Assembly: GCF_030013595.1 (NCBI RefSeq) | Contig: NZ_CP122768.1 | From: Escherichia coli | GTDB taxonomy: Bacteria > Pseudomonadota > Gammaproteobacteria > Enterobacterales > Enterobacteriaceae | Strand: one strand, 5' to 3' | Length of the DNA stretch: 64,000 nt | In this document: in pieces, positions 6,383 through 57,408 of the stretch | Layout: every line of letters starts with the position of its first letter | How positions within the stretch are numbered: the stretch's first letter is position 1 | Notes under the pieces: generated by a model | What the model saw: only the letters and a program-made list of their open reading frames with translations | Told to the model about the DNA's origin: nothing | The model's database searches: none | Translations under genes and position numbers: made by a program

Positions 6383-6559
6383 AGTTTTTCATTTATCAGC
6401 AGTCTGAATTTTAACCCTCTGGCGGCTTTACAGTACCTTACGCTATACTAGCCACTGAAAATGCCGGTTCACTTTCTTCGAATCGGCTTTCAATGTGTAT
6501 TTCACACAAATTAATCAACTTCCCCTTCCGAGGATCTGGCCTGAAAGGTCGGATAAGAT

Positions 6560-8495: not shown

Positions 8496-8867
8496 ATGAC
8501 CCTACGCAAGATTCTGGCACTCACCTGCCTGCTGTTGCCGATGATGGCTTCCGCACATCAGTTCGAAACCGGTCAGCGAGTGCCGCCGATTGGCATTACC
8601 GATCGGGGCGAGTTGGTGCTTGATAAAGATCAGTTTAGCTACAAAACCTGGAACAGCGCGCAGTTAGTGGGAAAAGTGCGGGTACTGCAACATATTGCTG
8701 GTCGCACCTCTGCAAAAGAGAAAAACGCGACGCTGATTGAAGCGATTAAATCAGCGAAGTTACCGCACGATCGTTACCAGACCACCACCATTGTTAACAC
8801 CGACGACGCGATTCCGGGTTCAGGGATGTTTGTGCGCAGCAGTCTGGAGAGTAATAAAAAGCGGTAA
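8496..8867 (+). pseudogene. ytfJ: ytfJ, truncated: reading frame runs into the IS1 terminal repeat and stops (123 codons versus an expected ~184)
   Basis: MTLRKILALTCLLLPMMASAHQFETGQRVPPIG...SSLESNKK then R-stop, where the final codons (cgg taa) come from the IS1 end ggtaatgactcc; expected C-terminal third absent. Confidence 0.8.
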
Positions 8868-8877
8868 TGACTCCAAC

Positions 8878-9381
8878 TTACTGATAGTGTTTTATGTTCA
8901 GATAATGCCCGATGACCTTGTCATGCAGCTCCACCGATTTTGAGAACGACAGTGACTTCCGTCCCAGCCTTGCCAGATGTTGTCTCAGATTCAGGTTATG
9001 CCGCTCAATGCGCTGAGTATAACGCTTGCTGATAACGTGCAGCTTTCCCTTCAGGCGTGATTCATACAGCGGCCAGCCATCCGTCATCCATACCACGACC
9101 TCAAAGGCCGACAGCAGGCTCAGAAGACGCTCCAGTGTGGCCAGAGTGCGTTCACCGAAGACGTGCGCCACAACCGTCCTCCGCATCCTGTCATACGCGT
9201 AAAACAGCCAGCGCTGACGTGATTTAGCACCGACGTAGCCCCACTGTTCGTCCATTTCAGCGCAGACAATCACATCACTGCCCGGTTGTATGCGCGAGGT
9301 TACCGACTGCGGCCTGAGTTTTTTAAGTGGCGGAAAATCGTGTTGAGGCCAACGCCAATAATGCGTGCACTGGCGCGACAT
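8878..9381 (-). CDS. insB: IS1 transposase InsB (167 aa reading frame; expressed as InsAB' by frameshifting)
   Basis: [64 protein letters not shown]... overlapping insA in -1 frame. Confidence 0.93.
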
Positions 9382-9575
9382 CCGACGCCATTCATGGCCA
9401 TATCAATGATTTTCTGGTGCGTACCGGGCTGAGAGGCGGCGTAAGTGAACTGTAGTTGCCATGTTTTACGGCAGTGAGAGCAGAGATAGCGCTGATGTCC
9501 GGCGGTGCTTTTGCCGTTACGCACCACCCCGTCAGTAGCTGAACAGGAGGGACAGCTGATAGAAACAGAAGCCAC
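9300..9575 (-). CDS. insA: IS1 protein InsA (91 aa)
   Basis: [43 protein letters not shown]... zinc-finger/HTH InsA. Confidence 0.93.
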
Positions 9576-9789
9576 TGGAGCACCTCAAAAACACCATCAT
9601 ACACTAAATCAGTAAGTTGGCAGCATCACCATAGAAGTAAACTATCAAAAAACGCTCATTATTAAAATATAACTTATTAGCAATTGAATTTTTGCACTTT
9701 AAATACAATCTCTTTTTATTTATAACTTTTTAGGTTGGGAGAAATCAGGATGGCAGAATCAGGAAATACACTGTTTCTGCCATCTGAAT

Positions 9790-10530: not shown

Positions 10531-10719
10531 TTCTCCACCTCGTCTCTGTGAGCGGTGTTAACTTATTGTTTTACTTATACCCTATCGTTAATGAATGCGC
10601 CAACTGTGATAGTGTCATCATTTTCAAAGCGTAAAATTGTGGCATTCTTCACTGTTCTATAAGTAAGACGTTTATTCTCCCTTTTCTTTCGTATTCCCGA
10701 TGATAAAAGGATGTCCCTG

Positions 10720-18556: not shown

Positions 18557-19195
18557 ATGCCCGGGCGCTTTGAACTAAAACCAACCCTGGAGAAAGTCTG
18601 GCACGCGCCGGACAATTTTCGCTTCATGGACCCGCTGCCGCCGATGCATCGTCGGGGGATCATTATTGCCGCCATTGTATTGGTAGTCGGATTTCTGCTT
18701 CCATCTGATGATACGCCCAACGCGCCGGTGGTGACGCGTGAAGCGCAGTTAGATATTCAGTCGCAATCACAACCACCGACAGAAGAACAGCTGCGGGCGC
18801 AATTAGTCACGCCACAAAATGATCCTGATCAGGTGGCTCCGGTCGCTCCAGAACCAATACAGGAAGGCCAGCCAGAAGAGCAGCCGCAACCCCCCCAAAC
18901 GCAACCATTCCAGCCAGATAGCGGAATTGATAATCAATGGCGCTCTTACCGTGTCGAACCCGGTAAAACGATGGCACAGCTGTTCCGCGACCACGGGCTG
19001 CCCGCTACCGATGTCTATGCAATGGCGCAGGTAGAAGGCGCGGGTAAGCCGCTGAGTAATTTGCAAAACGGGCAGATGGTGAAAATCCGCCAGAACGCCA
19101 GCGGCGTGGTGACGGGCTTAACCATTGATACGGGGAATAATCAACAGGTCCTGTTTACCCGCCAGCCGGATGGCAGTTTTATTCGTGCGCGGTAG
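18557..19195 (+). CDS. ytfB: OapA/LysM-domain cell-division-associated protein YtfB (212 aa from MPGRFELKP; alternative start at 18521)
   Basis: ORF 18521-19195; single TM segment, Pro/Gln-rich linker, C-terminal OapA-like domain. Confidence 0.85.
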
Positions 19196-19329
19196 ATGAA
19201 GGGTCAACCAGAAGCCAGCTAAGGAGCGTCTCTTTGATGACCTTACGTCTGGCTTCCAGTGCCTGGGGGGAAACCATACTGATGTGTTGACATCCTCCAC
19301 GCCCTGAAGGACGTGGATCCCTGCTACGT

Positions 19330-20538
19330 TCAGGCTGTCGCCTGAATCATTTCGGTGGGTTCCTGCTTCAACGAGCGGCCTGACTGCACCATCTCTCCAC
19401 AGGCAAGAACGGCGTGCCCCGCCGCTAAAATGTTACGAGCGCCATTTACATCGGCGTTCGCTGTATATCCACATACCTGGCATCTGAATTTAATTTGTGA
19501 CAGGCGATTTTCTTTCGCTGTATGACCACAGCACGCGCAACGCTGGCTTGTGTACGCTGGCGGAACAGCAAGCACCTGACCGCCACGCCAGAGCTGCTTG
19601 TACTCAAGCTGGCGGCGCATTTCATACCAGCCCTGATCCAGTATCGAACGGTTTAAACCTGATTTTGCCCGGACATTGCGCCGCGGCTGGCTGACCGTAC
19701 CCGCTGCTGACTTTGACATGTTGCTGACCTTCAAATCCTCAATGACTATCATTGCGTGGTTTTTGCTGACGGTCGTTGTGACTTTGTGAAGGTAGTCCCT
19801 GCGGATATTTGCGATACGGGAATGCAGTCGCTGTATTTTGCGTTTCTGCTTCTGCCAGTTATTGCTGAATTTGACCTTGCGGCTTAACTGTCGCTGAAGT
19901 CTCGCCAGCTTCTTCTGTTTTTTCTGAAAACTGTTTACAGGCTCAAAGACTGTGCCATCTGACAGCGTGGCGAGTTTAACCACGCCAGCATCCAGCCCGA
20001 CCATTGATGCTGAAGGATGAACCGGAGTTGATACTTCACTTTCTGTCTGAATACTGATGTACCACTTACCGCAGGACTGGCTGACCGTGACATTTTTCAC
20101 AACACCCGTGACCTGACGGCTATTCCGGTAGCGCATCCAGCCCAGTTTCGGCAGAAAAATACGGCTGTTTTCCTGATAGAGCTTAACGCCCTACGGGTAG
20201 CGGAATGCATCATTCTGTCCCCGCTTTTTGAATCGGGGAAAAGCAGCCCGCTTCTGGAAGAAGTTTTTGTAAGCCCGCTCAAGGTCTTTCAGTGACTGTT
20301 GCAATGGCTGTGACGGGGCATCTTTAAGCCATTGCGTTTCAGTGGCATTTTTCCACTCAACCAGCCAGGAAGCCATTTTCCCGTAAGGGATGTATTTATT
20401 ACCGGCCTCATGATTCTCATTCTGAAGCGCCAGAGCACGATTGAAAACGAAACGACATGCGCCTGCGAAGCGCCTCATTTCACGCTCCTGTTGACCACCG
20501 GGTCTTAACTGGAATTTAAATGCCTGTCGTCGTTTCAC
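19330..20538 (-). pseudogene. tnpB: tnpB (IS605 OrfB / TnpB RNA-guided nuclease family), ~402 codons interrupted by one in-frame TAG at 20191-20193
   Basis: N-terminal ORF (GTG start) VKRRQAFKFQLRPGGQQE...AFRYP, then TAG, then in the same frame GVKLYQENSRIFLPKLGW-MRYRNSRQVTGVV...; C-terminal part has RuvC-like region and CxxC...CxxC zinc finger ([39 protein letters not shown]). Confidence 0.8.
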
Positions 20539-20545
20539 AGGTCAA

Positions 20546-21000
20546 ATGATACTTTGGTCTGTGAAAAAAGAAACCTATATCCGGCGTGGAAGGTATTGTG
20601 TTTTCCTGATGCATGTTCACCTGGTCTTTGTCCCAAATACCGACGCCAGATTTTTGACCATGACGCGACAGAAAAACTACGCACTTACTTTTCAAATGTA
20701 TGTGCTGATTTTGAAGCTGAACTGGTTGAAATGGATGGCGAACCAGATCACGTCCATTTGTTAATTAAATATCCTCCCAAACTGGCGATATCCAGTCTGG
20801 TAAACAGCCTCAAAGGCGTATCGGGTAGGTTACTGCGACGAGATCGACCAGATATTGCAGTCAGGTATTACTACAAAGGCGTTTTGTGGAGTCCTGGCTA
20901 TTTTGCCAGTAGCTGTGGAGGTGCGCCAATATCCGCCATCCGTCAATCCATTGAACAACAGCAAACACCTGGTCAGGTGGAAAACCGCGCCGTATATCCC
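20546..21000 (+). pseudogene. tnpA: tnpA (IS200/IS605 Y1 HuH transposase), frameshifted; 3' limit uncertain
   Basis: Frame 1 MILWSVKKETYIRRGRYCVFLMHVHLVF, then a 1-nt frame change in a T-run (~20620-20630) into CPKYRRQIFDHDATEK...DHVHLLIKYPP (HuH motif)...[16 protein letters not shown]; a Ser occupies the position where family members have the catalytic Tyr. Confidence 0.7.
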
Positions 21001-21357
21001 CGCCCTGAAGGACGGGGTTTTACGGCACACCGGATAAACCAGGCCAAGCGTATGCTGGTTGATCAAATAATATCCCCCAAGCGCAGCAATATTAATATAC
21101 ACCTGCAATGGGTCGATATCTGGCTTAAAAATATTGTGTTTCTTCCCTTCATCCAATAAGGATTCCATTAACTGCAAGTGCGCATGATTAATTTCTAAGA
21201 GACGCTGTGATTTTACATAATGCACACCTTTACTTTGGTTTTCACTATGCACAATTTTTAAAAACCAAGGATTAGCAATATAATATATCCTAGGTAAAAT
21301 CGATGATTTTTTCAATGGCTTTTTGTGGCTGGTTAACCTGCTGATTAACAAACGCAC
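20830..21357 (-). CDS. Hypothetical ORF (175 codons) starting in the low-GC islet and reading into the IS element end; possibly a ytfA-like gene remnant
   Basis: ORF track 175 aa [17 protein letters not shown]...; roughly the first 108 codons lie outside the IS hairpin at ~21017, the rest is antisense to tnpA. No recognisable domain by eye. Confidence 0.3.
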
Positions 21358-23512: not shown

Positions 23513-23926
<414 letters not shown>

Positions 23927-24234
23927 TTATTCAGCCTCCTGTCTGGGTCAGCCGAATCCCGGGGAGGCAAGGAACGTGTTAAAGGTCGGCTGAAAAATGA
24001 CGCATTATAGTACTGACATACCCTGCTAAACTCAAGGCCAGCCGACAAATAAATCTCATCTTTCACCAAATCGTACTAACACGCTGATTTGAAGTTCATC
24101 ACACTTCATCATGGTGTTTTTTTGAACAACTGCATCAGAAATGGTCACCATCAACTTCTTTATCATTGATTAAAATTAAATCAGAAGATCATCACAGAGG
24201 AGAGCACACAAAGTCAGCCGTCGAGGAGGTATCT

Positions 24235-38959: not shown

Positions 38960-39680
38960 CAGCTATAGACAAATAAATATCCTCCGGCATAGCCGGAGGT
39001 TTTTCAAATGCGCCTGTAAGGCTCTGTTACCAGCCGCGCCCTAACAGGCGCATACGATCTGACATTTGCATTCAACTTCGTTACTTACGGCCCGTAAACG
39101 GGCTGCCCGGATATGGAATCGATAACTGCTCCCCCATTTTATCCTCTTCAAGCTGGTGCTTTATGTAGTCCTGTATCTTCGCCGTGTTCTTACCCACCGT
39201 ATCGACATAGTACCCTCGGCACCAGAACTCCCTGTTTCTGTATTTGAATTTCAAATCCCCAAACTGCTCGTAAAGCATCAGACTGCTTTTCCCTTTCAGA
39301 TATCCCATAAAGCCGGATACGCTCATTTTGGGTGGGATTTCCACAAGCATATGGATATGATCTGCGCAGCACTCTGCTTCCAGAATCCGTACGCTTTTCC
39401 ACTCACACAGCTTTCTCAAAATACTGCCTATCGCCCTACGCTTCTCTCCGTAAAACGCCAGTCTTCGGTATTTCGGCGCAAAAACTATGTGATATTTACA
39501 GTTCCAGCGGGTGTGCGCTAAGCTCTTTTCGTCCCCCATTGGGACCCCCTTTTGATTTCTTGTTTGACACTTGCAGTTGCCAGACCGCAAGGTGTTTTAA
39601 CAAATCAAAAGGGGTTTTAATAACTGGCTCAAAGCTGAAAGCTTTCCGGAACCCCCAGCCTAGCTGGGGGTTTTCTGTGC
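38960..39680 (-). mobile_element. IS200: IS200-type insertion sequence (single tnpA, ~0.7 kb); boundaries approximate
   Basis: tnpA reading frame with IS200-type protein sequence; hairpins near both ends (cccccagcctagctggggg at 39651-39669; cctccggcatagccggagg at ~38969-38991); lies between the rlmB terminator and the yjfI start. Confidence 0.7.
39081..39539 (-). CDS. tnpA: IS200 Y1 (HuH) transposase TnpA, 152 aa from MGDEKSLAHTRWNCKYHIVFAPKYRR
   Basis: ORF 39081-39590; HuH motif HIHMLVEIPP, conserved PKYRR and C-terminal Tyr region (KIQDYIKHQ). Confidence 0.88.
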   Translation of the reverse strand: MGDEKSLAHTRWNCKYHIVFAPKYRRLAFYGEKRRAIGSILRKLCEWKSVRILEAECCADHIHMLVEIPPKMSVSGFMGYLKGKSSLMLYEQFGDLKFKYRNREFWCRGYYVDTVGKNTAKIQDYIKHQLEEDKMGEQLSIPYPGSPFTGRK

Positions 39681-39712
39681 ACAAAAAAAAACCATCCAAA
39701 TCTGGATGGCTT
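39681..39712 (-). terminator. Rho-independent terminator downstream of rlmB
   Basis: Minus strand: gccatccagatttggatgg stem-loop followed by ttttttttt (plus-strand aaaaaaaaa-ccatccaaatctggatggc). Confidence 0.75.
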
Positions 39713-56988: not shown

Positions 56989-57064
<76 letters not shown>

Positions 57065-57099
57065 TTGGGTGGTCTGTGCTTTACAGCACTTTCAAATTT

Positions 57100-57175
<76 letters not shown>

Positions 57176-57332
57176 TTAATCTTCGTCTTTCGAACCGCTA
57201 CTGCCTTGGCTGCCTTCACTCACCTTAGTCACTTACTTTTGTAAGCTCCCAAGGATTCGTTCAGTTGCCGCCTTGTCGCAATTCGAAATACTGCGATTGG
57301 GTGGTCTGTGCTTTGCAGCACTTTTCAAATTT

Positions 57333-57408
<76 letters not shown>

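What the first reader, a model, noticed from the sequence alone, without database searches (positions are those of the whole stretch)
19286..21036. Decayed IS200/IS605-family element encoding a TnpB (OMEGA-type) nuclease homolog between ytfB and yjfZ
Between the conserved genes ytfB and rplI lies a ~1.75 kb element with a divergent Y1/HuH tnpA and a ~402-codon tnpB (RuvC-like plus zinc finger), bracketed by two same-orientation subterminal hairpins sharing an identical loop (ccctgaagga). TnpB proteins are established RNA-guided endonucleases (ancestors of Cas12), so this is the most system-like accessory module in the window. Both genes carry inactivating lesions, so it is probably a fossil, but its RNA component and ends may be intact. 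Whether this element is present at the same site in reference genomes I cannot tell without a search.
Basis: partly seen in the sequence, partly recalled or inferred. Interest (0 to 1): 0.6.

Follow-up and report, generated by a model that had tools for sequence, protein, structure and literature searches.

The report
Dead IS609 insertion sequence copy
This is a mutationally inactivated copy of IS609, a well-known E. coli insertion sequence carrying a transposase gene and an RNA-guided nuclease gene (TnpB), so it is an ordinary and already catalogued feature.

Summary
Window 19287-21033 (1747 bp) is a copy of IS609, an IS200/IS605-family element. It sits in the remnant of a TetR-family pseudogene (ytfA) between ytfB and yjfZ of an E. 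coli chromosome. Comparison with an empty site fixes the ends to within 1 bp and shows no target duplication. The element lies 3' of TTAT and ends in ...GAGGATGTCAA. Its active ("top") strand is the window's minus strand.

Both genes are dead. tnpB has a CAG->TAG nonsense codon (Q116*, 20191-20193). tnpA has a 1-nt deletion, a Tyr->Ser change at the catalytic tyrosine, and has lost its stop codon.

The ends and the guide-RNA (omega RNA) scaffold at the 3' end of tnpB are intact. Across 29 distinct relatives that scaffold keeps 96% of predicted pairs, and 21 pairs show compensatory changes.

Among 5426 complete E. coli genomes, 1745 carry the element at this site and 3249 have the empty site. 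O157:H7 carries an intact copy here. K-12 has the empty site here and a copy next to ydcO instead.

IS609 is catalogued, RefSeq annotates it routinely, and its TnpB has been purified and used with a TTAT motif. Nothing here is new, so interest is low.

The parts
19287..21033 (-). The complete IS609 element, 1747 bp. The active (top) strand is the window's minus strand. The ends could be shifted by one base (19286-21032).
   Evidence: Empty-site comparison with L003. Copies at other loci stop matching at these ends. The segment is 97.8% identical to the O157:H7 same-site copy, whose tnpA RefSeq names IS609.
21034..21037 (-). Target/TAM tetranucleotide 5'-TTAT-3' (minus strand), immediately 5' of the left end.
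   Evidence: Independent insertions share TTAT (one has TTAC) at this flank. A published IS609 TnpB assay used TTAT followed by a 20-nt guide (PMC12781874 supplement).
20988..21033 (-). Left end. The inner hairpin is at 20998-17 (8-bp stem, TTCA loop). An outer stem spans 20988-94 with 21021-27. The window has a private C->T at 21027, which turns a C-G pair into T.G.
   Evidence: Folded as DNA: -15.5 kcal/mol, z = -3.3, and stronger than the complementary strand at -13.9. Alignments.
20546..20976 (+). tnpA pseudogene (Y1/HUH transposase). Lesions: a 1-nt deletion between 20632 and 20633; catalytic Tyr->Ser at 20947-20949 (TAC->TCC); stop codon TAG->CAG at 20974-20976.
   Evidence: NCBIfam NF033573, 116.8 bits. 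Compared with the intact 143-aa O157 TnpA. The Ser aligns with Y127 of IS608 TnpA, PDB 2a6m.
19330..20538 (-). tnpB (insQ) pseudogene, 402 codons with a GTG start. Q116* is a TAG at 20191-20193. There are 9 private missense changes. The RuvC residues D183, E267 and D363 and the four zinc-finger cysteines are still encoded.
   Evidence: RefSeq flags the 99.9%-identical copy as 'internal stop'.
19287..19433 (-). Predicted omega RNA (guide RNA) scaffold. It overlaps the last ~100 nt of tnpB and the right end. The 5' boundary is uncertain and may reach 19461.
   Evidence: Consensus structure over 29 distinct relatives: 53 pairs, 96.3% of cells paired against 35-45% when partners are slid, and 21 pairs with compensatory changes. 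Sub-threshold Rfam matches to RAGATH-18, HgcC and sot0042 lie here. The window copy keeps the stems.
19287..19317 (-). Right end. The hairpin is at 19296-19317 (9-bp stem, TTCA loop). It is followed by the conserved GAGGATGTCAA, whose last four bases, TCAA, are 19287-19290.
   Evidence: Folded as DNA: -11.1 kcal/mol, z = -3.2. The terminal 11-mer is nearly invariant and the stem covaries among relatives.
19267..19286 (-). Flanking DNA that would be transcribed as the guide (5'-CACAUCAGUAUGGUUUCCCC).
   Evidence: Inferred from the TnpB/omega RNA architecture. In the empty site this sequence directly follows TTAT.
19179..19286 (-). C-terminal fragment of the TetR-family pseudogene (ytfA) that the insertion split. 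The other fragment is at about 21034-21328.
   Evidence: RefSeq annotation of the collinear genome. The same gene is already annotated as a partial pseudogene in empty-site genomes.

Best explanation
The segment is a defective, immobile copy of IS609, a member of the IS200/IS605 family.

How an intact copy works:
1. The Y1/HUH transposase TnpA recognises the two subterminal DNA hairpins on the top strand (here the window's minus strand).
2. It excises the element as single-stranded DNA and re-inserts it 3' of TTAT, without duplicating the target.
3. TnpB binds an omega RNA made from the 3' end of its own transcript. That RNA consists of a scaffold plus about 16-20 nt of flanking sequence read across the right end.
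4. After seamless excision, TnpB cuts the resealed donor site, which reads TTAT followed by the guide match. Recombination with a sister copy then restores the element.

In this copy none of that can happen in cis. tnpB is truncated at codon 116. tnpA is frameshifted and has lost its catalytic tyrosine. What remains intact is the cis-acting DNA (both ends) and the omega RNA scaffold.

Shown here: identity, ends, target motif, lesions, conserved RNA structure and presence/absence polymorphism. Inferred from the family: the transposition and RNA-guided cleavage steps.
For: - Protein families and domains.
- PDB relatives: ISDra2 TnpB at E = 1e-53, and IS608 and ISDra2 TnpA.
- 97.8% nucleotide identity to the intact O157:H7 copy at the same site, which RefSeq names IS609.
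- The empty site defines the ends and shows no target duplication.
- A TTAT flank at independent insertions, matching the TAM used for IS609 TnpB in PMC12781874.
- The lesions.
- Hairpins fold better on the minus strand.
- Covarying omega RNA structure, with sub-threshold matches to TnpB-associated RNA families.
- Presence/absence polymorphism: 1745 occupied and 3249 empty of 5426 genomes.
- The top strand lies on the G-rich strand, which is the lagging-strand template. That matches the known orientation bias of the family (the bias itself is from my own knowledge, Ton-Hoang et al. 2010).
Against: - No expression or activity data exist for this copy.
- ISfinder could not be queried, so the name IS609 rests on RefSeq naming and on the literature.
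- The 5' end of the omega RNA is not defined.
- Part of the conservation in the scaffold region could come from the overlapping coding sequence and from the DNA role of the right-end hairpin. The compensatory pair changes argue for RNA or ssDNA structure all the same.
Confidence: 0.95

Rival explanations
1. It is a still-functional IS609. The apparent lesions are either assembly errors or are bypassed, for example by TAG suppression or by reinitiation at Met135 of tnpB.
For: The RuvC triad and zinc-finger cysteines are still encoded. The ends and RNA scaffold are intact.
Against: There are four independent lesions in two genes. One is a substitution of the catalytic tyrosine, which no read-through could repair. 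An independent assembly, HCP5S3_I2, has the same lesions at 99.9% identity, and RefSeq flags them as 'internal stop' and 'frameshifted'. A product starting at Met135 would lack the N-terminal HTH domain (Pfam residues 1-48).
Confidence: 0.02
2. It is a dead element whose omega RNA locus is still used. The RNA is transcribed and loaded in trans onto TnpB from another IS609 copy in the same cell. This directs cleavage of empty ytfA alleles, such as incoming DNA, much like an orphan guide.
For: The scaffold pairing is fully kept. The window's private C->T at 19374 turns the A.C mismatch seen in the K-12 and O157 copies into A-U. Most E. coli genomes carry about 3 places matching the IS609-containing query.
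Against: The closest genome, HCP5S3_I2, has only this one matching place on its chromosome, so it may have no trans donor of TnpB (H1). The window holds no second copy. No promoter is evident, and translation of the host transcript stops at codon 116. There are no expression data.
Confidence: 0.04
3. The hairpins are ordinary REP sequences, or the element is a REP-associated tyrosine transposase (RAYT) locus or a domesticated TnpB regulator (TldR-like), rather than an insertion sequence.
For: There is a weak NCBIfam match of TnpA to the REP-associated tyrosine transposase model (20.8 bits).
Against: That match is far below its cut-off of 80 bits, while the IS200 model scores 116.8. The hairpin core occurs only at the two ends within 64 kb. 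The whole 1.75-kb unit is present or absent as a block and occurs at several loci. The RuvC residues are not the ones mutated, and both transposon ends are kept. That is the opposite of the pattern described for TldR (abstract of 10.1101/2023.11.30.569447, plus my own knowledge).
Confidence: 0.01

Closest known systems
IS609 (ISfinder entry; the E. coli O157:H7 copy at the same ytfB-yjfZ site, and the K-12 insP/insQ copy next to ydcO)
   Same: 97-98% nucleotide identity over the whole element, with the same ends, the same divergent tnpA/tnpB layout, the same TTAT target and, in O157:H7, the same insertion site.
   Different: This copy has Q116* in tnpB, and a frameshift, Y136S and stop loss in tnpA. 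It also has 9 private missense changes in tnpB. O157:H7 has both genes intact. K-12 has an intact-length insQ (with C336Y in the zinc finger) and a dead tnpA.
IS608 (Helicobacter pylori) and ISDra2 (Deinococcus radiodurans), the mechanistic models of the IS200/IS605 family
   Same: A Y1/HUH TnpA (PDB 2a6m and 2xm3 are sequence relatives). Subterminal hairpins in the same orientation. Insertion 3' of a tetra- or pentanucleotide without duplication. A right end finishing in TCAA, as in IS608 (that detail is from my own knowledge). A TnpB related to ISDra2 TnpB at E = 1e-53.
   Different: The target is TTAT rather than TTAC (IS608) or TTGAT (ISDra2). tnpA and tnpB are divergent, with starts 7 bp apart, rather than co-directional. 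Protein identity is only moderate.
TnpB omega RNA / reRNA scaffolds (Rfam RAGATH-18, HgcC, sot0042)
   Same: A structured RNA overlaps the 3' end of tnpB and runs into the flank. The RAGATH-18 outer and inner stems are recognisable.
   Different: The matches are below Rfam gathering scores: 29.5 against 44.9 bits, 23.9 against 50, and 17.1 against 88. No curated Rfam family formally covers the IS609 scaffold.

Membership tests
IS200/IS605 family (IS609) | Encodes a Y1/HUH single-strand transposase (TnpA) | tested here: met
   NF033573 scores 116.8 bits against a cut-off of 55. The HUH motif (DHVHLL) aligns with IS608 TnpA. The gene is a pseudogene here.
IS200/IS605 family (IS609) | Subterminal imperfect hairpins at both ends in the same orientation, with no terminal inverted repeats | tested here: met
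   Hairpins at 20998-17 and 19296-19317 share the core CCTTCAGGGCG on the minus strand. The termini, CCGGTG... and ...GTCAA, are not inverted repeats.
IS200/IS605 family (IS609) | Inserts 3' of a specific short motif without target-site duplication | tested here: met
   The empty site reads ...GTTTAT|CACATCAG..., and nothing is duplicated in the occupied site. TTAT flanks the left end at independent insertions.
IS200/IS605 family (IS609) | Mobile: present or absent as a unit, with copies at several loci | tested here: met
   1745 genomes are occupied and 3249 are empty at this site. Other copies lie next to ydcO, yedK, yfeD and a DUF1869 gene, and on plasmids.
IS200/IS605 family (IS609) | Near-identity to the named IS609 reference | tested here: met
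   97.8% identity over 1.9 kb to the O157:H7 copy, whose tnpA RefSeq names 'IS200/IS605-like element IS609 family transposase'. ISfinder itself could not be queried.
IS200/IS605 family (IS609) | Autonomous transposition competence (intact TnpA with its catalytic Tyr) | tested here: not met
   A 1-nt deletion after codon 29, Y136S at the residue aligned with IS608 Y127, and stop loss. It is a defective member of the family, not a non-member.
TnpB / OMEGA RNA-guided nuclease system | TnpB domain set (HTH, OrfB_IS605/RuvC, zinc ribbon) with the RuvC D-E-D triad | tested here: met
   Pfam PF12323, PF01385 and PF07282. D183, E267 and D363 align with positions 191, 278 and 361 of an ISDra2-like 408-aa chain.
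TnpB / OMEGA RNA-guided nuclease system | Uninterrupted tnpB reading frame | tested here: not met
   CAG->TAG at codon 116, window 20191-20193.
TnpB / OMEGA RNA-guided nuclease system | Structured guide-RNA scaffold overlapping the tnpB 3' end and the right end | tested here: met
   53-pair consensus, 96.3% paired, 21 pairs with compensatory changes, and 0 of 500 shuffles reaching the observed values. Slid controls pair at 35-45%.
TnpB / OMEGA RNA-guided nuclease system | TAM equals the transposon's target motif | tested here: met
   The target motif inferred from flanks is TTAT. The same motif precedes the IS609 TnpB guide in PMC12781874 supplementary file 2.
TnpB / OMEGA RNA-guided nuclease system | RNA-guided DNA cleavage activity | not testable with these tools
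   This needs biochemistry or a plasmid-interference assay.
REP / RAYT (REP-associated tyrosine transposase) | RAYT-type transposase flanked by many dispersed REP copies | tested here: not met
   NF047646 scores 20.8 bits against a cut-off of 80. The hairpin core is found only at the two ends of the element within 64 kb.

The most novel reading that the evidence does not exclude
The fossil still produces a correctly folded omega RNA whose guide matches the empty ytfA allele. TnpB made by another IS609 copy would use that RNA in trans. The dead element would then act as a guide-only locus that still biases inheritance of this insertion or cuts incoming empty alleles.
Probability: 0.04. Interest if true: 0.4.

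Novelty: already known. Interest (0 to 1): 0.07.

Why it matters
It matters little beyond correct annotation. IS609 is catalogued, RefSeq annotates it in nearly every E. coli genome, and its TnpB has already been purified and tested.

The useful outputs are:
- exact ends, target/TAM (TTAT), strand and lesions for this copy;
- a covariation-supported omega RNA scaffold for the IS609 group, which Rfam does not capture at its gathering thresholds;
- the frequency of the insertion: 32% of complete E. coli genomes occupied, 60% empty.

Tried and rejected
- Rfam at gathering thresholds found nothing inside the element. Only sub-threshold matches to TnpB-associated RNA families appeared, so I built the structure from relatives instead.
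- The sigma-70 promoter and terminator scan of 19100-21300 gave counts close to the shuffles (5 against 2.7, and 3 against 2.2). It did not identify a tnpB, tnpA or omega RNA promoter.
- A search for a second IS609 copy in the window, using the hairpin core, was negative.
- The REP/RAYT reading was rejected on scores and copy number.
- The domesticated-TnpB reading was rejected because the transposon ends are kept and the catalytic residues are unchanged.
- I first read a compensatory change between the O157 and window copies out of the RAGATH-18 alignment. On re-checking the columns this was wrong. The O157 difference lies in an unpaired base. The true pattern at pair 84/129 is A.C in K-12 and O157, A-U in the window and G-C in most relatives.
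- I did not determine whether occupied sites descend from one ancient insertion or from several.

Full report
**What is there.** Window 19287-21033 holds two divergent reading frames. On the minus strand is a 402-codon tnpB (19330-20538, GTG start) with one in-frame TAG. On the plus strand is a tnpA starting at 20546, only 7 bp from the tnpB start. The tnpB fragments match NCBIfam 'RNA-guided endonuclease TnpB family' at 266.8 and 95.2 bits (cut-off 100). The tnpA frame matches 'IS200/IS605 family transposase' at 116.8 bits (cut-off 55). For the read-through TnpB, Pfam gives HTH_OrfB_IS605 (residues 1-48), OrfB_IS605 (162-277) and the Cas12f1-like TNB zinc ribbon (304-370). The closest solved structures are ISDra2 TnpB (8h1j and 8exa, E = 1e-53) and the IS608 and ISDra2 TnpA proteins.

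**Identity.** The 1.9-kb query, flanks included, matches 5424 of 5426 complete E. coli genomes. RefSeq names the intact same-site copy in O157:H7 'IS200/IS605-like element IS609 family transposase' plus 'RNA-guided endonuclease InsQ/TnpB'. The window copy is 97.8% identical to that copy and 99.9% identical to strain HCP5S3_I2, where RefSeq already flags 'internal stop' and 'frameshifted'. IS609 appears in 49 papers in the library. Its TnpB was one of nine purified in PMC12781874.

**Ends, target and strand.**
- An empty-site genome (L003) reads ...CATACTGATGTG|ATAAACCAGG... on the window's plus strand. The element is therefore 19287-21033, with a 1-base G ambiguity, and there is no target duplication.
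- Copies at other loci (ydcO, yedK, yfeD, prophages) stop matching at the same two points.
- Read on the minus strand, independent insertions all have TTAT (one has TTAC) directly 5' of the end next to tnpA. That end is therefore the left end.
- All copies finish at the other end with ...GAGGATGTCAA, followed by unrelated flank.
- So the top strand is the window's minus strand, and tnpB is transcribed towards the right end.
- Both hairpins fold better on that strand: -15.5 against -13.9 kcal/mol, and -11.1 against -9.6 kcal/mol, with z about -3.3.
- That strand is the G-rich one in this region. This fits the family's known preference for the lagging-strand template (my own knowledge: Ton-Hoang et al. 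2010).
The real loop is 4 nt.

**Lesions**, judged against the intact O157 copy and the K-12 ydcO copy:
- tnpB has CAG->TAG at codon 116 (20191-20193) and nine private missense changes. D183, E267 and D363 and the CxxC...CxxC cysteines are unchanged.
- tnpA has a 1-nt deletion between 20632 and 20633.
- tnpA also has TAC->TCC at 20947-20949. This replaces the tyrosine that aligns with the catalytic Y127 of IS608 TnpA.
- The tnpA stop codon is changed from TAG to CAG at 20974-20976.
- The element therefore cannot move itself, and TnpB cannot be made.

**RNA component.** No Rfam family reaches its gathering score inside the element. The three best sub-threshold matches all lie on the minus strand at 19274-19457: RAGATH-18, HgcC and sot0042. 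RAGATH-18-derived RNAs are guide RNAs of IS607 TnpBs (PMC11061315). The link of the other two to tnpB 3' ends is from my own knowledge.

A scan of viral contigs returned 61 relatives at 31-99% protein identity. From these, 29 distinct 190-nt 3' ends were aligned. The consensus fold has 53 pairs. 96.3% of cells are paired, against 35-45% when partners are slid. 21 pairs show changes on both sides, against 6-12 in the slid controls. None of 500 shuffles reached the observed values.

The window copy keeps these stems. Its private C->T at 19374 makes an A-U pair where the K-12 and O157 copies have A.C. The scaffold is about 19433-19287. The guide would be the flank from 19286 downwards (CACAUCAGUAUGGUUU...). 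In the empty site that sequence directly follows TTAT, as the TnpB homing model requires. The IS609 TnpB experiment in PMC12781874 also used TTAT followed by a 20-nt guide.

**Population context.** The right-end junction is present in 1745 of 5426 complete genomes. The empty junction is present in 3249, K-12 strains among them. The insertion lies in a TetR-family gene remnant (ytfA) that is already annotated as a partial pseudogene where the site is empty.

**Verdict.** This is a correctly recognised but ordinary feature: a dead copy of a catalogued insertion sequence. The mechanism described for it is that of the family and is inferred, not tested, for this copy. The only open and mildly interesting possibility is trans use of its intact omega RNA or its ends. 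The closest genome shows only one IS609 place on its chromosome (H1), which makes that unlikely.

Noticed in passing
window 38978-39681: A second IS200/IS605-family element: a ~704-bp IS200C copy (tnpA only) between yjfI and rlmB. It is absent from the otherwise 99.97%-identical genome HCP5S3_I2. Its tnpA ORF (39081-39590, minus strand) looks intact. The Rfam STnc490 match (39549-39672, minus strand) lies inside the element. One genome (MS 69-1) matched across the whole query, flanks included. Sampled genomes such as H61-H65 matched only the flanks.
   Followed up: partly
window 8863-9630: A 768-bp IS1 copy replaces about 1.24 kb of the ytfI region found in the closest genome, HCP5S3_I2. This looks like an IS1 insertion with an adjacent deletion.
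   Followed up: partly
L004 1544-2752 (E. coli K-12 DH5alpha insQ next to ydcO): The full-length K-12 InsQ/TnpB has C336Y in the first cysteine cluster of the zinc finger (CAYC instead of CACC). The laboratory-strain copy may therefore also be inactive, although it is annotated as intact.
   Followed up: no
L011, L045, L048, L050 (viral contigs): These relatives share the IS609-type tnpB 3' region only up to the position equivalent to window ~19358. After that they carry a different 3' end, which suggests recombinant elements with swapped right ends or omega RNA 3' modules.
   Followed up: no
window 20538-20546: The tnpB (GTG) and tnpA (ATG) start codons face away from each other and are only 7 bp apart. 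Each gene's promoter must therefore lie inside the other gene. The consensus promoter scan found nothing convincing.
   Followed up: partly
window 56992-57408 (minus strand): Three tandem tRNA genes (Rfam), annotated as tRNA-Gly in the collinear genome HCP5S3_I2. Other Rfam hits are the RpsF leader (23906-23990), ES239 (10597-10719) and STnc450 (6441-6498). All are ordinary core-genome features of this E. coli tamB-yjeM region.
   Followed up: no
NZ_CM149870.1 (strain HCP5S3_I2), whole chromosome: The genome closest to the window shows only one IS609 place on its chromosome, this dead copy. The median E. coli genome has three places, and most carry the ydcO copy.
   Followed up: no
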